From positions 29,268-93,267 of the forward strand of contig CAZHVM010000001.1 of assembly GCA_964536135.1 (NCBI GenBank): a stretch of DNA of 64,000 nt, written 5' to 3'. The notes beneath the pieces were generated by a model, which searched no databases, had not been told where the DNA came from, and saw only the letters and a program-made list of their open reading frames with translations. Made by a program: the position numbers and the translations under genes. This document shows positions 1 through 62,000 of this stretch, in pieces; the first letter of the stretch is position 1, and the number at the start of each line of letters is the position of its first letter. This DNA comes from an uncultured Candidatus Saccharibacteria bacterium. Lineage in GTDB: Bacteria > Patescibacteriota > Dojkabacteria > SC72.

Positions 1-389
1 TTTGAGTCCGAGAATTTCTTTGAATCTCCTATTCCAATACTAGAAATCTTCTCTAGAAATTCTTCATTTAAAAAACATGCGACTACTACAAGAGGTCCAA
101 AGTAATCTCCCTTTCCTACCTCATCTACACCAAGATGGGCAACAACATCACTGTCATCCTCTCTGTTATTTTTAACTGCAGTAATTATGTTTGTAAAATC
201 TTCACTCCCTTGGAATACCAATTTACCACTAGTGTAAAGGATTACATTGGAACCCTCAGGACTTTTCATCCGAAATTTAGCATATGGATTATTTACGTAC
301 TCCTCTTTCCATCCGTATGCTTCTAGTACATCTTCCGCATTCTCTCTTTGAACTTCATCTAATTGTATAGTGACAGTATTTTGTATCAT

Positions 390-6898: not shown

Positions 6899-8101
6899 AT
6901 GTTTTTAGCACACGGCCCCATTTCGTATCTTGCAAACGAGGTTATTCAGAAGAAAAAGATCTCAAATTTAAAATTCCATGAGCAAATACTGGTAAGTATA
7001 TTGGCAATCCTTTTTGGTATTCTTCCAGATATTGATTTGCTAATACTTCCAATGTTCTCTATTCCACAGTTTTCTCACCACAACTACTTTACCCATGCTC
7101 CTCTGTTCTACATAGGTATATGGTTAATACTTAAACTAAAGGTAGCCATATTCGACAGAATAGTTAACAAGAAAACTTTAGCTGTACTTCATCATGATTT
7201 AATGAATGTAATTCTCAACACCTTCCTCATAGCTACAATGGTGCATTTCCTTGCAGATACACTAACTGGAGGGATCATGTTGCTCTATCCAATTTCTACA
7301 TTCAAATTCAGTATCCTTTCTTCCTTCATGGTACCCAATCTCTTCCAACAGTATTTCCTACTCCCAGATTTCGCCATAGAGTTGGTTTTCTGTTCCATTT
7401 TCTTTGTACATATTTACAAGAAATTTTTCCAAAAGAATATCTTCTTTGATGTTCTTAAATATTTCTTCCTTTCTGCTTCTGCTATATTCCTTTTTGTCAC
7501 CATTTTCTTCAGTACCCAAACCTACAACAAAAATAAGATGTATGACAGTAATGGAAAGGAAAACTACGATGTAGATATGGATGGGTTATATGACAAGAAG
7601 GATATGGATATTGATAATGATGGTGTAGACAACATTGTAGATATTGATCTTAAGAAATTAACACAGGAAGTTAAAGATATTTCTGAGAGTGGGAAGTTAG
7701 CATCGTTTAATACTGGTTCAATTCAGTATATGTTCGGTGGTTTTGATTCATACAGATTACTTTCTCAAGCATATTTCAATATTTCATCTCCAATTGAAGG
7801 AGTTTTGAAAAATACTGTAAAAGAGAGAGAGTACTGGACCAAATTAAGCTATCCTGAGCTCCTGTATGGCTATTTTAACTCAAAATCCCTACTCAAGGAG
7901 TTAGATGTAACTCAAGAGAGTGTTTTAAATATTGGGACCTTAATATTCCTTTTGGACGAAAATGACAAAGTAGTGAATATCGCTTTGGTTGTAGATGAAG
8001 ATAGTGTTGGAGTTGTACTATCACAAGACAGACAGTTAAAAACACATACCTTGCAAGAATTGTTCGAAAGCGAATATACTAGTGTAAAGGTTACCAAATA
8101 A
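6899..8101 (+). CDS. polytopic membrane protein, YdjM-like (DUF457-type) N-terminal half with Asp-rich calcium-binding-like C-terminal region
   Basis: Multiple hydrophobic helices with His-containing motifs (HHNYFTHAP, HFLADTLTGG). C-terminal DMDGLYDKKDMDIDNDGVDNIVDID repeats resemble thrombospondin type-3 / Ca-binding Asp repeats. Family assignment is tentative. Confidence 0.4.
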   Translation: MFLAHGPISYLANEVIQKKKISNLKFHEQILVSILAILFGILPDIDLLILPMFSIPQFSHHNYFTHAPLFYIGIWLILKLKVAIFDRIVNKKTLAVLHHDLMNVILNTFLIATMVHFLADTLTGGIMLLYPISTFKFSILSSFMVPNLFQQYFLLPDFAIELVFCSIFFVHIYKKFFQKNIFFDVLKYFFLSASAIFLFVTIFFSTQTYNKNKMYDSNGKENYDVDMDGLYDKKDMDIDNDGVDNIVDIDLKKLTQEVKDISESGKLASFNTGSIQYMFGGFDSYRLLSQAYFNISSPIEGVLKNTVKEREYWTKLSYPELLYGYFNSKSLLKELDVTQESVLNIGTLIFLLDENDKVVNIALVVDEDSVGVVLSQDRQLKTHTLQELFESEYTSVKVTK

Positions 8102-13894: not shown

Positions 13895-15028
13895 TTATCT
13901 TAAAGATTTTAAAATCTCTTGTGCAGCTTTCTCTCCAATACCCTTAATTTCCTGTAAACTCTTTTCATTTTTCCCAGAAAGATCGCTTATTGTATTAATT
14001 CCTTCCTCTTTTAATGCTTTAAGAATTCTTGTCGAAAGACCTAAATCTTCAATCTGTTTTGAATCCGCTTCTTTCTTAGCTTCTTCTGCCGCTACTATGT
14101 CTGCAGTTATATCCTTTTTAACAACTCTTACAACTGTTCCTTTTGATTCTGCAATTTTTCCTTCTCTAAGTGCCTTCATTCTCTCCCTCTCCTCGTTTGC
14201 CATTTTCTCTTCTCTTTCTTTTTTCTCCAAGAAGTTTCTGCTCATTCTATCTAATACTGCCTCATGATCTCTTCTTAGAGCAACTAAGGAATTACCATAT
14301 TTGGAATTCCCGATTACCTCTCCAAGGACATTCATAATTAGAGTTATACTCTTTAGAGAGTCATCGTTTGCAGGTATTGAGTGTGTAATTAAGTCTGGGT
14401 TACTGTTTGTATCTACCATTGAAATGATTGGGATACCTACTTTGTTAGCTTCTCTTACTGCAATTTTTTCTACTTTACTGTCTATTACAATGATAGCTAC
14501 AGGAAGTTTGTCCATGAATTTAATCCCTTTGTAAATCATGTTGAGTTTTGCAATTTCTTTTTCCATTAAAAGAACTTCTTTTTTAACAAGATCTTTACCA
14601 CCCTGCGCAATCTCCTCTTCCATCTTTACAAGATTTTGGATACTTCTTCTTATGGTTTCAAAGTTTGTAAAAAGACCACCTGGCCATCTTCTATTTACGT
14701 AGAAAGCACCCTTCTCTAGTGCAATGTTTTGAACTATTGAAGCTGCTTGTCCTTTTGTACCAACGATTAAGATATTCCCTGTATTAGAGAGTTTTTCTAA
14801 TTCTTCTACTGCTTTTTTAAGCAATTCTTGTGTTTTAACAAGGTCTATGATGTGAATCCCGTTTCTTTCCTCGTAAATATATTGTTTCATTCTTGGATTC
14901 CACGCACTTTTCTTGTGACCAAAATGGCATCCTGATTGAAGCAATTCTATTAACTCTGGGAATTTAACTGTAGAGACTTTGTTTTGAGTCTTTGTCTCTT
15001 CTACGACTTTTTTTGCTGTTTTTTCCAT
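13895..15028 (-). CDS. rpsB: 30S ribosomal protein uS2 with C-terminal extension
   Basis: uS2 signature LLQSGCHFGHKKSAWNPRM and the core to about residue 250. About 120-aa extra Lys/Glu-rich C-terminal tail ending in a helix-hairpin-helix-like LQEIKGIGEKAAQEIL motif. Confidence 0.9.
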   Translation of the reverse strand: MEKTAKKVVEETKTQNKVSTVKFPELIELLQSGCHFGHKKSAWNPRMKQYIYEERNGIHIIDLVKTQELLKKAVEELEKLSNTGNILIVGTKGQAASIVQNIALEKGAFYVNRRWPGGLFTNFETIRRSIQNLVKMEEEIAQGGKDLVKKEVLLMEKEIAKLNMIYKGIKFMDKLPVAIIVIDSKVEKIAVREANKVGIPIISMVDTNSNPDLITHSIPANDDSLKSITLIMNVLGEVIGNSKYGNSLVALRRDHEAVLDRMSRNFLEKKEREEKMANEERERMKALREGKIAESKGTVVRVVKKDITADIVAAEEAKKEADSKQIEDLGLSTRILKALKEEGINTISDLSGKNEKSLQEIKGIGEKAAQEILKSLR

Positions 15029-15118
15029 ATTTTTCCTTTTATTAATATCTCTGGTGGGTGATATCTATATCATCCAGGAATTGTTCAGAGATATATGAGA
15101 TATATATTAAACGTTAGG

Positions 15119-15147
15119 ATTATACAAAGAGAATGAGGAGAATGCAA
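15119..15147 (-). promoter_or_regulatory. sigma70-type promoter for rpsB (TTGCAT-17 nt-TATAAT)
   Basis: On the minus strand ttgcat tctcctcattctctttg tataat, about 90 nt upstream of the rpsB start; perfect -10 and 5/6 -35 with 17-nt spacer. Confidence 0.6.
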
Positions 15148-15413
15148 GGTTTTACTTGCACTTTATATTGAGAAAAAGCTTGTAAGCGACAGTATCGCCA
15201 CCCCCAATTAAGTGAGATGGCGACTTGTCAAAGGGATACCCTTCCTAAGAAGATGGACTTGCACCATGTAGCATACTGCCCTAGAACTATCGTATGGAGA
15301 GCTTCTACCAACTCTCAACCTTCTTAGATATTGAAGCAAGGAACAGTCTTATGACAAAAGTCTAAAAAGACTGTTCCTTGTGAGGGGGATGCATCCCTCT
15401 ATAATTGTGAATG

Positions 15414-15623
15414 TTACTGCTGGGTCGTGTGAGTATTATCAACTGTCCACCCACCAGAGGGAGAAGGATTTAAATCAGAAGATGTTCTTTCTGAGTTTCC
15501 ATTTCCATCATTACTCCAATGAGTGACATGGGCAGAAGTACCGCCACATCGATCATCACCAACGACCTCTTGCCGACTCCAGTTGGAGCCTGATTTCTCT
15601 TCACCAGTTGCACGGCCAGGCAT
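15414..15623 (-). CDS. small Gly/Ser/Asn/Thr/Trp-rich hypothetical protein (69 aa) inside a GC-rich island; coding status uncertain
   Basis: ATG preceded by AAAGGAGG 5 nt upstream (the strongest SD seen in the window). Codon GC far above genome norm; the region is full of hairpins, so a structured RNA is an alternative. Confidence 0.3.
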   Translation of the reverse strand: MPGRATGEEKSGSNWSRQEVVGDDRCGGTSAHVTHWSNDGNGNSERTSSDLNPSPSGGWTVDNTHTTQQ

Positions 15624-15731
15624 AACAATCCTCCTTTAAAAGAACCCAACATGCTCGTCATGTTGTTTATAATGACTATTTTACTCCAGAAAGAGAGAAA
15701 TGTTAAGTATTATCAAGCCAGAATAGCCAAT

Positions 15732-16364
15732 CTAAGTAATGCTTTTCCACGCCTCTCCCCCAATAACAATATGATCTAGTAGTTTAATACCAACAAGATC
15801 TAATGCTTCCGAGAGCCTTTTTGTGAAGAGTATATCTTCTTCACTTGGACTAGGATCTCCAGATGGATGGTTATGTGCTATTACTACCAAAGCTGCATTT
15901 AATTCTAGTGCTGGCGTTATGATATCCCTTGGTAACACACTAACGATATCCAACGACCCCATACCCACTACCCTCTTATCTAGTACCTCAAACCTAGAAT
16001 TAAGAAAAAGCCCAACTACATACTCCTGCTTTTTACTACCAATATCTCTTAACAAACCATACGCATCTTCAGAATCCTTCACAAAACTCCTCTCACTCCT
16101 ACACAATCCATATACTCTTCTTCCCAACTCCATGCCTGCAAGAATACGCATTGCCGTTACAATTCCAACCCCCTCTACTCCATCGATATCTTCAATACAT
16201 ATCTCCTTACCATTACTCACAACCTTACGTATTCTCTTTACAATACTCCTTGAGATTGAAAGGAAATCTTTCCCTTTTACACCAGAACCAACCAATATTG
16301 CTACCAATTCTGTATCACTAAGACTATCTATCCCTCTCTCAAGGTATTTCTCTCTCGGAAGCAT
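15732..16364 (-). CDS. radC: RadC-like JAB/MPN domain protein
   Basis: JAMM motif HNHPSGDPSPSEED and N-terminal helix-hairpin-helix region; 210 aa. Confidence 0.85.
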   Translation of the reverse strand: MLPREKYLERGIDSLSDTELVAILVGSGVKGKDFLSISRSIVKRIRKVVSNGKEICIEDIDGVEGVGIVTAMRILAGMELGRRVYGLCRSERSFVKDSEDAYGLLRDIGSKKQEYVVGLFLNSRFEVLDKRVVGMGSLDIVSVLPRDIITPALELNAALVVIAHNHPSGDPSPSEEDILFTKRLSEALDLVGIKLLDHIVIGGEAWKSIT

Positions 16365-20196: not shown

Positions 20197-22197
20197 TTAA
20201 ATCTTTCCCTCTTTAACCATCCACATAATCATGTTTTGCATAATGGCGACAGCATTGGAGCTATGCCCACCATCTTCAAGAAATACTGAGAAAGAGTACT
20301 TAGGCTTGTCATACGGGAAGAAACCACCTACCCATGCATGAGTATTTTCGTAAATTCCTTTGGAATTTACCTTTCCGAACTCTGCAGTACCCGTTTTAGC
20401 AGCCACGACTACCCCCACATTGGCCAACTGCCCCACAGACCTTTTCGGACCGTTCACAGCGGACCACATCCCCTCCTTAGTGGTATTAAAGGCCTCCTTG
20501 GACACCATGTTTTCCTCTAAAAGGTCAAATGTTAGAGTTTCTGTTTCTCCTTGCTCATCTCTAAAAGACTTTGCAACATGTGGAGTATGTAGTTTTCCCT
20601 CGGTAGCAAGAGCTGCCATCCAGTTGGACATCTGGATTGGTGTTACCAGAGTTATTCCCTGCCCAATTACAGAGTTACATGAGTCTCCCTCTGGATACCA
20701 CACAGACTCAAGCCATGGGCTTGTGGTCTCTGCTAAAAGCTTTTTATTGGCTGGAGAAGGAAGTCTACCCGGAGCTTCTCCTGGTACATCTATTCCCGTG
20801 TATTTTCCTATTCCAAACTTCTCTAAGTAAGGATCTAGCTTGTTAATATCCCAGTTTCTAATTAATTCACAAAAGAAAATGTTTGAAGATTGGGCTATAC
20901 CTCCGACAACATTAAGAGGACCATATGCATGATTTTCGAATTCTTGGAAAGGCGCACCATTGGAGAATTTGTATCCATATCTGCTTACGTAAATTGTGTT
21001 TTTAGTTATGGCACCAGCATCCAGTGCAGCAGGTGCAACTAGACTTTTAAAGGTGGAACCAGGAGGCATCTGAACAGATATAGCTCTATTAATGAGTGGA
21101 AGATTTTTGTCACCAAGAAGTTTGGAGTAATCTTTTGTTGAAATACCACCTACGAAGAGATTGTTGTCATAGCTTGGGTATGTAACCATCGCTATAATTT
21201 CGCCTGTCTCAACATCCTCTATGATACCCGCACCGCCTACAGCATCAGCTTTCTTAACACCACTCCTTAGGAAATCGTAGAATTTCTTCTGTATATCTAT
21301 ATCTATAGTTAGATACAAACTATCCCCCGATACAGCCTCTTTTATAACATATTCTTGGTTTGAGATAGACCTTCCAAGAGCATCAACCTCCATTGCTATT
21401 TCACCATTTTCACCTCTAAGCTGTTCGTCATACCATCTCTCTACACCACTTTTGCCAATTGTATCTGTCAGAGTAAAAGATTCCGAAGAAGACAAATCCT
21501 CATTTGTGATATCGCCAGTATATCCAATAATATGTGAGACTATATCCTTGTATGGATAGTATCTTTGACTATCATTATCTATATATATACCTATCAACAA
21601 CTCACTTTTTGACTTTATATCTATCGCTTTTTCATTACTTACATTCTCTGCAATCAATATGTCTGTAAAATATGGACTCTCCTTGTGAACAAAATAAATC
21701 TTTTCAAGAATACTACTGTATTCTCCACCAGCATAGGTCTTTTTCCATGCATCACCAAGTATACCCCCGAGGGTATTGATTGCGTTCTCTAAGGCCTCTG
21801 CCTTTATTGCCCCTCTCTCATCTAGATAATCTCCCATCTTAATGTACAAGTTCATAGACGGAACATTCTCAGCAAGTTTTTTACCATTCCGATCAAAGAT
21901 TGCACCTCGATAAGCAGTTTCAGTCTTTAACCTTATTTGGTTATCATTAGATTTTTTCAGCATTTCTTCTCCTTTCACTATCTGAAGTGCTGTTAAATTC
22001 CCTAGCAGAACAATGAAAAGTATGAAAAAAAGAAAAAAAACAAATATATAATTCCAAGGGCTACTCTTCTCAACAGTGGCAGGCTTAGAGAAGTATTTCT
22101 TAAGCGAAAAACTAAAAGGCTCTAAGCGCCCATTAGAGATCTTCTTTTTTCTTTTAGGGATACTACCTGCTATTTTCTTGGATAGTTTTAATTCCAT
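20197..22197 (-). CDS. mrdA: penicillin-binding protein 2 (elongasome transpeptidase)
   Basis: N-terminal TM anchor; transpeptidase motifs STFK, SSN, KTGT; downstream of mreBCD. Confidence 0.85.
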   Translation of the reverse strand: MELKLSKKIAGSIPKRKKKISNGRLEPFSFSLKKYFSKPATVEKSSPWNYIFVFFLFFILFIVLLGNLTALQIVKGEEMLKKSNDNQIRLKTETAYRGAIFDRNGKKLAENVPSMNLYIKMGDYLDERGAIKAEALENAINTLGGILGDAWKKTYAGGEYSSILEKIYFVHKESPYFTDILIAENVSNEKAIDIKSKSELLIGIYIDNDSQRYYPYKDIVSHIIGYTGDITNEDLSSSESFTLTDTIGKSGVERWYDEQLRGENGEIAMEVDALGRSISNQEYVIKEAVSGDSLYLTIDIDIQKKFYDFLRSGVKKADAVGGAGIIEDVETGEIIAMVTYPSYDNNLFVGGISTKDYSKLLGDKNLPLINRAISVQMPPGSTFKSLVAPAALDAGAITKNTIYVSRYGYKFSNGAPFQEFENHAYGPLNVVGGIAQSSNIFFCELIRNWDINKLDPYLEKFGIGKYTGIDVPGEAPGRLPSPANKKLLAETTSPWLESVWYPEGDSCNSVIGQGITLVTPIQMSNWMAALATEGKLHTPHVAKSFRDEQGETETLTFDLLEENMVSKEAFNTTKEGMWSAVNGPKRSVGQLANVGVVVAAKTGTAEFGKVNSKGIYENTHAWVGGFFPYDKPKYSFSVFLEDGGHSSNAVAIMQNMIMWMVKEGKI

Positions 22198-25813: not shown

Positions 25814-25890
25814 GCCGAAGTAGCTCAGTTGGTCAGAGCAACTGTTTTGTAAACAGTAGGTCGAGAGTTCGAATCTCTCCTTCGGCTCCA
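25814..25890 (+). tRNA. tRNA-Thr (anticodon TGT)
   Basis: Cloverleaf: acceptor gccgaag/cttcggc, D arm tagctcagttggtcagagc, anticodon stem actgt/acagt with loop ttTGTaa, T arm tcgag-ttcgaatc-tctcc, CCA encoded. Confidence 0.85.
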
Positions 25891-25895
25891 GGTAT

Positions 25896-25978
25896 GCAGA
25901 GGTGGCGGAGCGGTCAAACGCATTGGACTGTAAATCCAACTCCTTCGGGATACACAGGTTCAAATCCTGTCCTCTGCA
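25896..25978 (+). tRNA. tRNA-Tyr (anticodon GTA), type II long variable arm
   Basis: Acceptor gcagagg/cctctgc, anticodon stem ttgga/tccaa with loop ctGTAaa, 14-nt variable arm, T loop ttcaaat; 5 nt downstream of tRNA-Thr. Confidence 0.85.
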
Positions 25979-26055
25979 TATACCTAAATCTCCTTCTTGC
26001 TTTAATGCAAATAATGTTTAAAATGTATGTATATATAAATTAGATATATTTTTAC

Positions 26056-26790: not shown

Positions 26791-26867
26791 GCTGGATTAG
26801 CTCAGTTGGTTAGAGCACATTCATGGTAAGAATGAGGTCCTGAGTTCGACTCTCAGATCCAGCTCCA
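26791..26867 (+). tRNA. tRNA-Thr (anticodon GGT)
   Basis: Acceptor gctggat/atccagc, anticodon stem cattc/gaatg with loop atGGTaa, T arm ctgag-ttcgact-ctcag, CCA encoded. Confidence 0.85.
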
Positions 26868-28694: not shown

Positions 28695-28771
28695 GGGCCC
28701 ATAGTTTCAATTGGTTAAAACCGCGGTCTCCAAAACCGCTATTCCCTGTTCGAATCAGGGTGGGCCTGCCA
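28695..28771 (+). tRNA. tRNA-Trp (anticodon CCA)
   Basis: Acceptor gggccca/tgggcct, anticodon stem gcggt/accgc with loop ctCCAaa, T arm ccctg-ttcgaat-caggg, CCA encoded. Classic position before secE. Confidence 0.85.
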
Positions 28772-43537: not shown

Positions 43538-43541
43538 GATA

Positions 43542-43615
43542 CGCATCCGGCCGGAATCGAACCGACAACCTACGCGTTAGGAGTGCGTTGCTCTGTCCTT
43601 TTGAGCTACGGATGC
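43542..43615 (-). tRNA. tRNA-Arg (anticodon CCT)
   Basis: Minus-strand cloverleaf: acceptor gcatccg/cggatgc, D arm gctc-aaaaggaca-gagc, anticodon stem acgca/cgcgt (one A-C mismatch) with loop ctCCTaa, T arm gtcgg-ttcgatt-ccggc; no encoded CCA. Confidence 0.65.
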
Positions 43616-43672
43616 ATGTATAAATATACCACATTTCCAGAAGTAATTTAATTAGCTATGGGATAATAGATA

Positions 43673-49987: not shown

Positions 49988-50061
49988 TCGGGGTGACTCG
50001 ATTTGAACGAGCGACCTCTACGTCCCGAACGTAGCGCTCTAGCCATCTGAGCTACACCCCG
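49988..50061 (-). tRNA. tRNA-Pro (anticodon CGG)
   Basis: Minus-strand cloverleaf: acceptor cggggtg/caccccg, anticodon stem ctacg/cgtag with loop ttCGGga (G37), T arm gctcg-ttcaaat-cgagt, discriminator A; no encoded CCA. Confidence 0.8.
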
Positions 50062-52045: not shown

Positions 52046-52122
52046 TGGCGCACTCGGAGGGATTCGAACCCCCAACCGTCGGTTCCGAAGACCGATGCTC
52101 TATCCAGTTGAGCCACGAGTGC
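52046..52122 (-). tRNA. tRNA-Arg (anticodon TCG)
   Basis: Acceptor gcactcg/cgagtgc, anticodon stem tcggt/accga with loop ctTCGga, T arm ggggg-ttcgaat-ccctc, CCA encoded; 19 nt upstream of argS. Confidence 0.8.
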
Positions 52123-52135
52123 ATTTTTAAATATA

Positions 52136-52209
52136 CGTACCTGGCCGGAATCGAACCGACAACCGTTGGCTCCGCAAGCCAATGCTCTATCCAATTGAGC
52201 TACAGGTAC
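52136..52209 (-). tRNA. tRNA-Arg (anticodon GCG)
   Basis: Acceptor gtacctg/caggtac, anticodon stem ttggc/gccaa with loop ttGCGga, T arm gtcgg-ttcgatt-ccggc; no encoded CCA. Confidence 0.75.
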
Positions 52210-52242
52210 AAAAGAGCTACAAATTTATTAATTCTACCACAT

Positions 52243-59000: not shown

Positions 59001-62000
59001 TTTCCTAAACTCAATCCACTAACACTTGCTACAGATAGATAATCGCTACTTCCGTTAAAATTCCTTGCTTTTCCATATGGACCATCCACTATGGTTGTAC
59101 CAGTTGCAGTTCCCGTATTACTACCAACAACATCAGCTACAGATGTACCACTTGTTTCTTCCATTGGCCAATATCCTAAGAGCCCTGTTGTATCAGTATC
59201 ATAAAGATATGGGTTATCGAAACTCTCCCATAGTGAATCACTCCCTCTTTTACTCTTCGAAGACCATCCGCTAGACTCTTTTACATCTCTTCCGGATGTA
59301 TCTGTAAAATTGGTTAACGTTCCATTACATGAAGCACCGCAGCTACCAATCGCACTAGCTGTTGTACCACTTAATTCATTCATCTTCCAAAAGGCAAACA
59401 TACTATCTGAGCTGTATGGCGTTTCTCCATCTGATGTAGAATAGTTTGATACAATTTCAGATGCGGATAGCACACGCGAATAGACTTGAATATTATCAAT
59501 ATTCCCATCAAAATAGTTCTGAGTACCTGGCTCATATCTACCAATAGAAAGGATATTTGTCCCAGAAGCTATCCCCATAGTACCAACAGTACTAACAGGA
59601 CTATTAGCGTCCTCCACACCATTAACATATAGGTGAAGTCCAGTAGCATCATTAGCCTTAAAAGTCGTACATACATGTGTCCACTTATCTGCTACTGCAG
59701 AATTCGATGCACCTTCAATATATGCCGTACCTGATATATATACTTTGTACATATCCGTTCTCCCCGTTTCCTGCCCTATATCATCTTTTAAAAGCATAAA
59801 CCCTTCCCACGCTATGTTGTCAATCTTTGTTAGTATGAAATCATCATCAGAGATTGTGTCATGCTTAACCCATGTACAAACCGATAATTCTGTTAAAGCA
59901 TCAAAACTGTCAACATCCCCTACACTAATATAATCGTCTACACCATCAAGAGCAATTCCACCATCACCATATGATGTCCAATTACTCCATGTACTATTAT
60001 CTGTACTTACCCTATATTGAAACTCAATATTTCCAGCTTGGTAATTGGAAAGTACTTCTGAGTCTGGAAGTGCTCTTGAATAAATTCTTACCAAATCTAT
60101 GTTTCCATTCCAAAAGTCACCTCCAGATCCATAACCTTCTTTCCCAATGGTCAATGCTGTGCTGGTATTAGTTATGCTTTCAGAAAAGGCTACAGAGTCC
60201 TGTAATACACCATTAATATATAATTTGGCATAAGAGCCATCATATGTCCCGACAATATGTTGCCATTCGTTATATCCTTTGGACAAGCCCTCTGGCCAAG
60301 CACTATTTGTGCCTGAAAAAACCCAGAAACGAAAATATCCATCCTCGAAATAAAGACCATACCCGTCTTCCCATATACTGTTTGATTTTGCAATTATTGC
60401 AGGATAGGAGCTACTACCCTTATTAAGATTAACCCATGCTTCAAGTGTAATATTTGTTTCTAGATTCAAATAAGCATTATTAGGAACACTTATATAGTCA
60501 TCAACTCCATCAAACATTACTGCTCCAGATCCCCATCTTCTGTTGTCTGCAGTCCATCCTGTACCTACAGCTGCATCTTGACCAGTGGTAGTCATACTTG
60601 TTAATGTACCATTACATGATGTACCACAGCTACCTCCACTTACCGCAGTGGTACCGCTAGTTTCATTGAAATTCCACTGAGCTACTAATCCAGTTGTACT
60701 ATATGGTGTTTCTCCATCCCCTGTATTTACACCAGATGGTATCCAAGACAATGTAGCTTCTGACATACTACTACCCATATCCATGGAAGAGGAGGTATAT
60801 TCTCCAAAGATATTACCTTCTTCGGCTTCCGTTGGTTTATACCTAATAATTACAATTCCTGAGCCACCAGTACCACCATTGCCTCCCCCTGTTGCACCAC
60901 CACCACCACCACCACCTAGCCCATTGGTACCAGCATTTCCCACTGTTCCTCCACCACCACATGCTCCTGGACTTCCACTAGTAGTACGACCTGACGAGGC
61001 TCCTCCTCCAGCATAACACACAGAAGTTCCTGAAATTGAAGAGTATGCACCGGTACCACCATTGCCTGCTGTTTTATATCCTCCAGTAGTTCCAGCTGCC
61101 CCTGCACCACCACCACCACCACCATTATAAGCCGGTGAGGCTCCTGTTCCACCACCATTATAACCCTGTGAACCTATACCTCCAGAGGCAGTAGAATTCC
61201 ATGCGGCGGCACCACCACCACAACCTCCATTTCCACCATTGGCAGTAGGTGCTTTGCCAGCACCTCCACCATAAGCAGTTATTGTCGAAAACTCTGAATC
61301 ACCTCCGTTTGAGCCAGCTACTCCTCCCGCACCAACCGTGACAGAAAATGAACCTTCTGAAATTACAAATGTTGAATCATATACCATACCCCCTGCACCA
61401 CCACCACTATTAACCAAGCCACCACTCCCACCACCACCACCACCACCAACTACTAAAACTGCAACATCACCCGAACCTGTACATACAAAATCTCCACTTG
61501 CCGTAAATGTGTGAATCTTATAAACACCATCCATAGTCACAGTACCACCAGTACAATTAAAAGCAGAAGTTGGTTGTTCAATTTGTATCTTCGGTCCAGT
61601 TACGGATTCTACACCATTAAATATTCCGCCACTAAAATCTGTAGTATCATCATGTACAATACTAGGATCTATCCTTACAGGAAATACCCTTTCACTACTT
61701 AACAACCATTCTAAACTTACAGTAACCTTTGCCCTGTAGTTATCATTCTCTCCCTCTTCTACCTTTAGTTTTACATCAAATGTCTTGCTATTAATATCAT
61801 CAATAGCAAAGTTTGGTAAGAAATGTGCTAAATACCTACCCTTACTATCCACAAAATAATATGTGCTTGTACTCTGTCCATCAATAGTAAACCAACCTTC
61901 TTTTAATTCAACATCACTATCCATCTTCAAATCAAAAACAAACTCATTAACAGGAAGTGAACATTCCTTGACTTTACAACTATCCTGGTATGCCTCCAAA

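What the first reader, a model, noticed from the sequence alone, without database searches (positions are those of the whole stretch)
15170..15640. GC-rich, hairpin-dense 450-nt island between radC and the rpsB promoter, containing an SD-led 69-aa ORF
Local GC is around 50% versus about 35% elsewhere. It contains a perfect 14-bp inverted repeat (caaggaacagtctt...aagactgttccttg, 15339-15381) and several shorter hairpins (gcgacagtatcgcc, aagggataccctt, gagggggatgcatccctc). The strongest Shine-Dalgarno in the window (AAAGGAGG, 5 nt spacer) precedes an ORF for a Gly/Ser/Asn/Thr/Trp-rich peptide with one Cys. This could be a structured ncRNA, a horizontally acquired small gene, or a precursor peptide. 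In AT-rich genomes GC islands are usually structural RNAs. I could not match it to RNase P, tmRNA or SRP RNA motifs by eye.
Basis: seen in the sequence. Interest (0 to 1): 0.55.

Follow-up and report, generated by a model that had tools for sequence, protein, structure and literature searches.

The report
Small protein gene plus tRNA-shaped RNA
The GC-rich patch is two adjacent genes on the minus strand, a conserved 69-residue protein gene of unknown function followed by a tRNA-shaped RNA gene that matches no Rfam family; the pairing recurs in several lineages of ultra-small (Patescibacteria/CPR) bacteria, so it is probably a functional unit that nobody has described.

Summary
GC is 45% against 36.6%, not 50 against 35. 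The 14-bp inverted repeat lies at 15337-15380 and is unique in the window.

Everything reads on the minus strand. (1) A promoter-like site, a conserved 5'UTR hairpin and a U-rich anti-SD stem precede a genuine 69-aa gene (15414-15623). Its changes are third-codon dominated. It has about 22 homologue clusters among 5.8 billion proteins and no Pfam, PHROG, PADLOC, NCBIfam or PDB match. AlphaFold gives a four-strand beta-meander. (2) Two 3' hairpins covary. (3) An 84-nt cloverleaf RNA (15244-15327) has an 8-bp acceptor stem, a D-like arm, a T-like arm with loop UGCAAGU, and no anticodon loop. Two more covarying hairpins follow (15188-15243).

The cloverleaf belongs to a family I found in Dojkabacteria, Microgenomates and related MAGs (84, 105 and 117 nt). 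Of its 37 pairs, 21 show compensatory changes. Rfam (E<=10) and ARAGORN find nothing.

Diverged homologues of the small protein sit directly upstream of all three RNA subtypes. Other RNA copies stand alone with their own promoter and terminator.

Best reading: a small-protein gene linked to a trans-acting tRNA mimic that tRNA-processing enzymes release. Function is unknown. It is not a RiPP precursor, an rpsB leader or a tRNA pseudogene.

The parts
15678..15706 (-). Promoter-like site for the small gene: TTAACA, 17 nt, TAAAAT.
   Evidence: Consensus scan, 10 of 12 matches. A TAAAAT/TATAAT hexamer sits at the same place in relatives L007, L017, L013, L001 and L022. Function is inferred.
15647..15665 (-). 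5'UTR hairpin CAACAUG-ACGAG-CAUGUUG. As DNA it is a palindrome, AACATG..CATGTT.
   Evidence: Found by the scan. It is present in all window-type loci, and L007 has a compensatory G-C to U-A change. Its role is unknown; it could be an RNA stabiliser or an operator.
15627..15646 (-). SD-sequestering stem: the conserved GGUUCUUU pairs with the SD AAAGGAGG (15630-15637).
   Evidence: GUUCUUU is conserved upstream of the SD in all three protein subfamilies. Predicted P(paired) of GGAG is 0.67-0.93 in 10 of 10 UTRs, and 0.88 in the window. The regulatory role is inferred.
15414..15623 (-). 69-aa protein gene of an orphan family; acidic; predicted four-strand antiparallel beta sheet.
   Evidence: ORF list. 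Nine homologues at 69-97% identity, all about 70 aa. Substitutions by codon position are 9/12/31 against L017 and 12/10/48 against L022. AF2 pLDDT is 78. No Pfam, PHROG, PADLOC, NCBIfam or PDB match.
15383..15400 (-). 3'UTR hairpin 1: GAGGG-loop-CCCUC.
   Evidence: I7. Kept in 6 diverged loci, 100% paired, with one compensatory pair.
15337..15380 (-). 3'UTR hairpin 2: the perfect 14-bp inverted repeat. It is the gene's terminator-type hairpin. Its U-tract is degenerate here, so read-through into the RNA is likely.
   Evidence: 6 of its 14 pairs show changes on both sides across 6 loci. A U-run follows it in L013 and L021, where no RNA follows. Read-through in the window is inferred.
15244..15327 (-). 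84-nt tRNA-shaped RNA. Acceptor stem 8 bp (15320-15327 with 15245-15252). D-like arm with loop GGUAGA. Short third arm without an anticodon loop. T-like arm AUGG-UGCAAGU-CCAU. Discriminator G at 15244.
   Evidence: CM R1 hit at 64.5 bits, E = 1.6e-17. Family covariation is 98.6% paired, with 21 of 37 pairs changed on both sides. It differs by 1 nt from the copy in L017, where the adjacent ORF is only 75% identical.
15231..15243 (-). Hairpin 3 (AAGGG-UAU-CCCUU), immediately 3' of the cloverleaf.
   Evidence: Identical in window, L007 and L017. With no variation, its structure is untested.
15188..15229 (-). Hairpin 4: 4+7 bp with an invariant 13-nt loop UCACUUAAUUGGG. It is the 3' end of the conserved RNA block and the likely terminator of the unit.
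   Evidence: Window and L017 differ at 8 bases in the hairpin. All 8 are stem bases and they fall in 5 pairs. 3 pairs changed on both sides, 2 on one side, and none is broken. Similarity to relatives ends just after it.
15119..15126 (-). Probable rpsB promoter -10 (TGTATAAT). It marks the start of the rpsB leader and is not part of the island.
   Evidence: Window and L007 are 100% identical from this motif to the rpsB start, while the 50 nt upstream of it have diverged. Promoter function is inferred.

Best explanation
The island is a two-gene module read on the minus strand.

(a) Small protein gene. A promoter-like site drives an mRNA for a 69-aa acidic, all-beta protein. Its strong SD is masked by a short U-rich stem (GUUCUUU with AAGGAG), so translation is probably conditional.

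(b) RNA gene. Behind two 3' hairpins lies an 84-nt tRNA-shaped RNA followed by two further hairpins. The RNA keeps the parts of a tRNA that processing enzymes and elbow-binding partners recognise:
- an 8-bp acceptor stem stacked on a 3-4-bp T-like arm, about 12 bp in all;
- a T-loop of the U-x-C-A-A type;
- a GG-containing D-like loop.
Where a tRNA has its anticodon arm, this RNA has a variable arm with no anticodon loop, so it cannot decode.

Most likely mechanism (inferred). In the window the RNA is made by read-through from the small gene. RNase P cuts it out at the first acceptor nucleotide, and a 3' tRNA-processing activity trims the other end. It then acts in trans as a tRNA mimic. It is functionally tied to the small protein, either as a partner or as co-regulated cargo of one cassette.

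Shown: the gene, the structures, the family and the linkage. Inferred: processing, trans action and the protein-RNA relationship.
For: Protein gene:
- Nine homologues, all about 70 aa.
- Third-position-dominated divergence.
- A conserved SD and anti-SD stem.

RNA:
- A pattern taken from the window and from L022 found 17 loci, all in Patescibacteria MAGs, plus one IMG/VR contig.
- The minimum-energy folds of the 117- and 105-nt forms are cloverleaves.
- On the CM-based alignment 98.6% of cells pair (88.4% in shuffles). 21 of 37 pairs changed on both sides (7.6 in shuffles; at most 4 in slid controls). 7 of the 8 acceptor pairs covary.
- The cloverleaf differs by 1 nt between window and L017 while the adjacent ORF is 75% identical.

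Linkage:
- Protein homologues lie directly upstream of the RNA, on the same strand, for all three RNA subtypes: window, L007 and L017-L020; L025 and L030; L026, L028, L033, L038 and L040.
- The protein family has only about 22 clusters among 5.8e9 proteins, so chance adjacency is negligible.
- Homology across the subtypes is supported by BLASTP at E = 2e-7, 1e-11 and 1e-5.

Trans action and 5' end:
- The other copies stand alone. TATAAT lies 5-6 nt before acceptor nucleotide 1, and a hairpin plus U-run follows the discriminator.
- So the mature 5' end coincides with the acceptor start.
- Linked copies lack such a promoter and would need processing.

Precedent: the tRNA-like module of M. smegmatis YrlA is cut by RNase P and receives CCA (PMC4201824).
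Against: - There are no expression data, so processing, CCA addition and any protein-RNA contact are untested.
- The protein is acidic, which is atypical for an RNA binder.
- Fold searches give only generic beta-sheet matches.
- Several protein loci have no RNA within 3-4 kb (L001-6, L013/14, L042/43, L045), and many RNA loci have no protein. The two can therefore work apart.
- For the window copy alone the cloverleaf (-21.3 kcal/mol) is 4.5 kcal/mol above the predicted minimum.
- The family was collected with a pattern that fixes the D- and T-loop sequences, so conservation of those loops is partly ascertainment.
- hhalign between the window-type and Dojkabacteria-type protein alignments is not significant.
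Confidence: 0.6

Rival explanations
1. The cloverleaf is only a cis-acting 3'UTR element of the small gene. It would act as a tRNA-like 'punctuation' or stability signal that defines or protects the mRNA 3' end, with no function of its own.
For: In the window and in 7 other loci it lies 9-90 nt behind the gene's 3' hairpin without a recognisable promoter of its own.
Against: At least 10 loci carry the RNA alone, with TATAAT 5-6 nt upstream and its own terminator. In some it follows unrelated genes such as NUDIX. In L022 it is convergent with the protein gene. The RNA is far better conserved than the mRNA it would serve.
Confidence: 0.12
2. Protein and RNA form a conflict module carried on mobile cassettes. 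It could be toxin/antitoxin-like, or a decoy against tRNA-targeting nucleases or defence systems.
For: In Dojkabacteria the RNA, with or without the ORF, is one unit in arrays of single-gene cassettes bounded by tRNA-Val 3'-half-like repeats. Neighbouring cassettes include restriction-modification, MazG-like and NUDIX genes. Some MAGs carry two copies or two subtypes. Irregular 8/4 tRNAs have been reported near toxin-antitoxin systems (PMC5389517).
Against: No PADLOC or PHROG match for the protein. No repeats or mobility genes flank the window copy, which sits stably after radC in window, L007 and L017. No toxin-like feature is evident. This is a refinement of the best explanation rather than a true alternative.
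Confidence: 0.15
3. The cloverleaf is a decayed tRNA pseudogene or an integration-site remnant with no function.
For: The D-arm sequence AGUUGGUAGA is typical of tRNAs. tRNA-Val fragments abound next to the Dojkabacteria copies.
Against: Stems are kept by compensatory changes across three subtypes. There is near-identity where flanking coding sequence has diverged 25%. Promoters and terminators are conserved. All three subtypes lack an anticodon loop yet keep the four-way junction.
Confidence: 0.04
4. The structured region is a leader or riboswitch controlling rpsB (S2 autoregulation).
For: It lies upstream of rpsB on the same strand.
Against: In L017 the same RNA precedes an Asp/Glu racemase gene, and in other loci unrelated genes. 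A separately conserved block that begins at a TATAAT lies between it and rpsB, and the 50 nt between the two blocks are not conserved.
Confidence: 0.02
5. The 69-aa ORF encodes a RiPP or bacteriocin precursor.
For: It is small and rich in Gly, Ser, Thr and Trp, and it has a strong SD.
Against: The Cys is not conserved. Invariant residues span the whole length, including the last residue. It is predicted to be a folded sheet. There is no signal or leader. No modifying enzyme or transporter is nearby in the window or in relatives.
Confidence: 0.03

Closest known systems
Non-canonical 8/4 tRNAs (allo-tRNAs and other irregular tRNAs; Mukai et al., PMC5389517)
   Same: A cloverleaf whose acceptor branch is a long 8-bp acceptor stem on a short (3-4 bp) T stem, with a long D stem. 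Some members were proposed to be non-translating regulatory RNAs linked to mobile or toxin-antitoxin contexts.
   Different: Those RNAs keep a 7-nt anticodon loop, and usually a long variable arm that gives Ser identity. This RNA has no anticodon loop in any subtype and only a 4-nt variable region. Its T-loop has G where tRNAs have U55. Neither ARAGORN nor Rfam recognises it.
tRNA-like module of bacterial Y RNAs (YrlA; Chen et al., PMC4201824)
   Same: A non-decoding RNA that mimics the tRNA acceptor, D and T arms. One member is cut by RNase P and receives CCA. It is encoded next to its protein partner.
   Different: In YrlA the ends of the RNA form a Ro60(Rsr)-binding stem and the 'acceptor' is a closed stem-loop. 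Here the ends form the acceptor, as in a real tRNA. The linked protein is a 69-aa orphan, not a Ro60/TROVE protein. There is no Rfam match.
tmRNA tRNA-like domain
   Same: A tRNA mimic without an anticodon; another structure takes the place of the anticodon arm.
   Different: There is no G3-U70 pair (A3-U70 in 20 of 21 distinct sequences), no tag reading frame, no pseudoknots and no encoded CCA. The RNA is 84-117 nt, and ARAGORN and Rfam are negative.
fourU-type RNA thermometers and other SD-masking leaders (applies to the 5'UTR only; from my own knowledge)
   Same: A short run of U (UUCUUU) pairs with AAGGAG through A-U and G-U pairs just upstream of the start codon.
   Different: Temperature dependence is not tested. 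The stem is very short and could equally be opened by a factor or by the ribosome itself.

Membership tests
tRNA (Rfam RF00005 / ARAGORN definition) | Recognised by tRNA covariance or heuristic models. | tested here: not met
   No tRNA hit at 15244-15327 at the gathering score or at E<=10. None for the 117-nt form either. ARAGORN finds nothing. The real tRNAs of the window score 51-77 bits.
tRNA (Rfam RF00005 / ARAGORN definition) | Four-way cloverleaf with acceptor, D, anticodon and T arms. | tested here: met
   The cloverleaf is supported by covariation in all four helices.
tRNA (Rfam RF00005 / ARAGORN definition) | 5-bp anticodon stem closed by a 7-nt loop with U33. | tested here: not met
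   The third arm is 5 bp plus a 15-nt loop in the window. In the other subtypes it is a 45-55-nt irregular hairpin whose apical loop varies in length and sequence. The second base after the stem is A, not U.
tRNA (Rfam RF00005 / ARAGORN definition) | 7/5 acceptor/T branch and a T-loop U54-U55-C56-R57-A58. | tested here: not met
   The branch is 8/4 in the window and 8/3 plus a G-A in the others. The T-loop is UGCAAGU, with G at position 55.
allo-tRNA / 8/4 irregular tRNAs | 12-bp acceptor branch split 8/4 or 9/3. | tested here: met
   8-bp acceptor plus 4-bp T stem in the window copy.
allo-tRNA / 8/4 irregular tRNAs | Anticodon loop and (for Ser identity) a long variable arm; usable in translation. 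| tested here: not met
   No anticodon loop and a 4-nt variable region. Translation activity cannot be tested here.
tmRNA | tRNA-like domain with G3-U70, a tag-peptide ORF and pseudoknots; detected by ARAGORN or Rfam. | tested here: not met
   A3-U70. There is no room for a tag ORF in 84-117 nt. ARAGORN and Rfam are negative.
Bacterial Y RNA (YrlA) | A Ro60/Rsr-binding stem formed by the RNA ends, and an rsr (TROVE) gene nearby. | tested here: not met
   The ends form the acceptor stem. The flanking genes are radC, an rRNA adenine dimethylase-family gene, rpsB and tsf. No Rfam family matches at E<=10. A TROVE gene elsewhere in the genome was not searched for.
RiPP precursor peptide | Leader/core architecture with a cognate modifying enzyme or transporter in the locus. 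| tested here: not met
   Conservation is uniform over the whole length, the Cys is not conserved, and the protein is predicted to fold. No maturase is present in the window or in syntenic loci.
rpsB (S2) leader | Always upstream of rpsB and within its transcript. | tested here: not met
   Other downstream genes occur in L017 and in the Dojkabacteria loci. A separate rpsB promoter block exists.
Intrinsic terminator (hairpin 2, 15337-15380) | GC-containing hairpin followed directly by a U-run. | tested here: inconclusive
   The hairpin is strong and it covaries. The U-run is present in L013, L021 and L017, but the window has CUUCAAUAU.
fourU-type RNA thermometer (5'UTR) | U-rich strand pairing with the SD. 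| tested here: met
   UUCUUU pairs with AAGGAG in 10 of 10 UTRs, P(paired) 0.67-0.93.
fourU-type RNA thermometer (5'UTR) | Temperature-dependent melting and translation. | not testable with these tools
   Needs reporter or melting experiments.

The most novel reading that the evidence does not exclude
The tRNA-shaped RNA and the 69-aa beta-sheet protein are the two parts of a previously unknown system of CPR bacteria. In some lineages it travels as a small cassette. A non-decoding tRNA mimic, matured by the tRNA-processing machinery, would work with or be controlled by the small protein. Its target would be a tRNA-recognising partner such as a tRNase toxin, a defence nuclease, a modification or charging enzyme, or the ribosome.
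Probability: 0.3. Interest if true: 0.8.

Novelty: new variant of a known kind. Interest (0 to 1): 0.62.

Why it matters
CPR/Patescibacteria have tiny genomes and very few described regulatory RNAs. This locus yields a well-supported structured RNA family that Rfam lacks. It looks like a tRNA stripped of its decoding function. It is repeatedly linked to an orphan small protein that matches none of the four protein-family libraries searched.

tRNA mimics that are known (tmRNA, Y RNAs, viral tRNA-like structures) each opened a piece of biology, so a new one in uncultured symbionts is a concrete lead. It is also easy to test: RNase P cleavage, CCA addition, binding assays and metatranscriptome read ends.

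On the practical side, the covariance model could annotate these RNAs in MAGs, and the small gene should be added to gene calls.

Tried and rejected
- Rfam at gathering score on the whole window, and at E<=10 on 14950-15800, on L001 and on the 117-nt form. Only chance-level hits or none.
- ARAGORN for tRNA or tmRNA on the window and 13 loci. Nothing at the element.
- Protein searches in GTDB species genomes found no relative. JGI metagenomes gave only 2 loci. An HMM of the window-type family against 1.84e9 representatives gave one cluster plus P0011; the other three hits are repeat proteins and I treat them as spurious.
- Pfam, PHROGs, PADLOC, NCBIfam and a PDB sequence search found nothing.
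- hhalign between window-type and Dojkabacteria-type protein alignments was not significant. Homology rests on the BLASTP chain through the L025-type protein.
- I considered 5S rRNA (similar length), SRP Alu domain, cobalamin riboswitch (GGUGCAAGUCC resembles GGUGnnAAnUCC), retron msr/msd and type III antitoxins. I rejected them on topology, missing signature motifs, missing partner genes and the absence of Rfam hits.
- I looked by eye for extended complementarity between the RNA and the Dojkabacteria cassette repeat. Only 6-7-nt matches turned up, which is chance level.
- A self-BLAST of the island against the window found no repeats or duplicated flanks.
- Literature searches for a described equivalent found none.

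Full report
OBSERVATION

The stretch 15029-15731 is the intergenic space between radC (15732-16364) and rpsB (13895-15028). Both lie on the minus strand.

GC of 15170-15640 is 45.0% against 36.6% for the window, which puts it in the top 1.6% of equal-sized windows. The 14-nt perfect inverted repeat (15337-15350 / 15367-15380) is the only one of its kind in 64 kb, and 20 shuffles gave none. The minus strand of 15150-15420 folds much better than shuffles (z = -6.0) and better than the plus strand does (z = -3.9).

THE ORF IS A REAL GENE

The 69-aa ORF (15414-15623, minus strand) has nine homologues of 69-97% identity, all about 70 aa. Invariant residues run from P2 to the C-terminal Q69. Nucleotide differences concentrate at third codon positions: 9/12/31 against L017, 12/10/48 against L022 and 10/9/37 against L013.

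The family is tiny. A profile search of 1.84e9 representatives found one cluster plus one distant member. A broader profile found about 22 clusters among 5.8e9 proteins. There is no match in Pfam, PHROGs, PADLOC, NCBIfam or PDB sequences.

AlphaFold2 gives a four-strand antiparallel beta meander with pLDDT 78. Fold searches return only generic sheets. The protein is acidic, and its single Cys is not conserved.

EXPRESSION SIGNALS OF THE GENE

A TTAACA-17-TAAAAT site lies at 15706-15678. A hairpin follows at 15647-15665 and shows a compensatory change in L007. The motif GUUCUUU comes next and is conserved in all three protein subfamilies. In 10 of 10 UTRs it is predicted to pair with the SD, with P(paired) 0.67-0.93. 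I infer that the strong SD is masked and that translation is conditional.

Two hairpins follow the stop codon (15383-15400 and the 14-bp repeat). They are conserved in six diverged loci, 99% paired, with 7 of 19 pairs changed on both sides against 2.9 in shuffles. In loci without a downstream RNA the second hairpin is followed by a U-run (L013, L021). In the window the U-run is degenerate.

THE tRNA-SHAPED RNA

Downstream, 15244-15327 (minus strand) draws as a cloverleaf:
- an 8-bp acceptor stem, CUAAGAAG with CUUCUUAG;
- a D-like arm, GAGAGUU-GGUAGA-AAGCUCUC;
- a 5-bp third stem closing 15 nt;
- a 4-nt variable region;
- a T-like arm, AUGG-UGCAAGU-CCAU.

Rfam and ARAGORN see nothing there.

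In L017 the protein is 77% identical and the ORF 75% identical at the nucleotide level. The cloverleaf there differs by a single base, C to U, which turns a G-C pair into G-U. The following hairpin 4 (15188-15229) carries all 8 of its base differences in stems. They fall in 5 pairs: three changed on both sides, two on one side, none broken. The RNA is therefore under much stronger constraint than the synonymous sites next door.

THE RNA FAMILY

Reading L022 showed a longer relative on the opposite strand. A pattern that joins the shared D- and T-loop sequences found 17 loci in GTDB genomes. All are Patescibacteria: Dojkabacteria, MAGs labelled Saccharibacteria, and Microgenomates. One IMG/VR contig also matched.

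There are three subtypes, of 117, 105 and 84 nt. They differ mainly in the length of the third arm. The 117- and 105-nt forms fold into the cloverleaf as their minimum-energy structure.

I built a covariance model and used it to align 26 hits. On that alignment 98.6% of cells pair, against 88.4% in shuffles. 21 of 37 pairs changed on both sides, against 7.6 in shuffles and at most 4 in slid controls. 7 of the 8 acceptor pairs covary.

Caveats:
- The alignment is fitted to the model.
- The loop sequences were fixed by my search pattern.
- The window copy's cloverleaf is 4.5 kcal/mol above its predicted minimum.

No Rfam family matches the 117-nt form even at E<=10. Four literature searches found no description of it.

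LINKAGE OF PROTEIN AND RNA

Homologues of the small protein (64-73 aa) lie directly upstream of the RNA on the same strand in L025, L026, L028, L030, L033, L038 and L040. The same holds in all window-type loci. In L022 the two genes are convergent and about 220 nt apart.

The three protein subtypes track the three RNA subtypes. Their homology is supported by pairwise BLASTP: window against the L025 type at 2e-7, P0011 against the L025 type at 1e-11, and the L025 type against the Dojkabacteria type at 1e-5. hhalign of the two shallow alignments is not significant. Given how rare the protein is, this adjacency cannot be chance.

The linkage is not obligatory. Several protein loci lack the RNA within 3-4 kb. 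At least ten RNA loci lack the protein.

HOW IT PROBABLY WORKS

Stand-alone copies have TATAAT 5-6 nt before the first acceptor nucleotide. A hairpin plus U-run follows right after the discriminator. The RNA is therefore a transcription unit of its own, and its 5' end coincides with the acceptor start.

Linked copies, including the window's, have no such promoter. They must come from read-through of the small gene's transcript and be cut out.

The preserved parts are those that RNase P, 3' tRNA-processing enzymes and the CCA-adding enzyme use: an acceptor/T stack of about 12 bp and a T-loop/D-loop elbow. The genome must already process CCA-less tRNAs, because 4 of the window's 8 tRNAs lack an encoded CCA. 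The YrlA precedent shows that such mimics can be cut by RNase P and receive CCA (PMC4201824).

No subtype has an anticodon loop, so decoding is excluded. I therefore favour a trans-acting tRNA mimic linked to the small protein. Whether the protein binds it is open, and the protein's acidity argues for caution.

CONTEXT AND RIVALS

In Dojkabacteria the RNA, with or without the ORF, is one cassette in arrays bounded by repeats that resemble the 3' half of tRNA-Val. The arrays are often headed by a real tRNA-Val. Neighbouring cassettes encode restriction-modification, MazG-like and NUDIX proteins. This hints at accessory or conflict functions. It recalls the report that irregular 8/4 tRNAs sit near toxin-antitoxin systems (PMC5389517). 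The window copy has no such repeats and sits stably after radC.

I reject these rivals:
- rpsB leader: the downstream genes differ between loci, and rpsB has its own promoter block.
- tRNA pseudogene: contradicted by covariation and conservation.
- RiPP precursor: no leader/core split, no maturase, and a predicted folded protein.
- A purely cis-acting 3'UTR role is hard to square with the stand-alone copies.

VERDICT

It is a conserved orphan small-protein gene coupled to a new family of tRNA-shaped, non-decoding RNA in CPR bacteria. The anatomy and the family are well supported. The mechanism is inferred.

Noticed in passing
L035:1-4700 (6 copies); also L024, L027, L028, L031, L033, L034, L036, L038, L040:7336-7365 and 7909-7938, L041:364-393: Dojkabacteria loci carry arrays of a ~30-nt direct repeat, T5-AAGTTCCATGCCTGAAAGTGTAGCCCACCA-TT. 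All copies in a locus are on one strand and are spaced 0.55-1.3 kb apart. Each sits between a T-run and a TATAAT, with one ORF (either strand) per interval. The repeat resembles a degenerate 3' half of tRNA-Val. A real tRNA-Val lies upstream on the same strand in L040, L033, L036 and L022. This looks like tandem single-gene cassettes accreted at tRNA-Val, and no integrase is seen in the 8-kb pieces.
   Followed up: partly
window 13895-15028 (-): Ribosomal protein S2 carries a C-terminal extension that matches the RNA polymerase alpha C-terminal domain / helix-hairpin-helix (PF03118, E = 1.6e-16). The same fusion is present in L007 and L018.
   Followed up: no
window 15647-15665 (-) and the equivalent position in L013, L017, L021, L022: The 5'UTR hairpin of the small gene is conserved in sequence as a DNA palindrome, AACATG(N4-7)CATGTT, placed just after the -10 box. 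It could be a repressor operator rather than, or as well as, an RNA hairpin.
   Followed up: no
L031:1-77 and 1752-1868; L025 and L026 (same MAG, CAZLAH01); L037 and L039 (same MAG, CAYMBI01): Some MAGs hold two copies of the tRNA-shaped RNA, and one holds two different subtypes. The RNA is therefore not a single-copy core gene, unless the bins are mixed.
   Followed up: no
window 60550-61500 and 20250-20800: The only stretches of the window that are more GC-rich than the island lie inside long ORFs. One is a Gly-rich segment of a 2204-aa protein with an N-terminal hydrophobic segment. The other is in a 666-aa protein that looks like a penicillin-binding protein. Neither is an RNA gene.
   Followed up: yes
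window tRNAs at 25814-25890, 25895-25979, 26791-26867, 28695-28771, 43541-43616, 49988-50061, 52046-52122, 52135-52210: Four of the eight tRNA genes encode their 3' CCA and four do not. The organism therefore needs both CCA addition and processing of CCA-less precursors.
   Followed up: yes
L041 (IMG/VR UViG_3300001242_001150) 222-338 (-): One copy of the 117-nt RNA lies at the edge of a contig classed as viral, next to a large Eco57I-like restriction-modification gene and flanked on both sides by the tRNA-Val-like repeat. The viral assignment may be wrong.
   Followed up: partly
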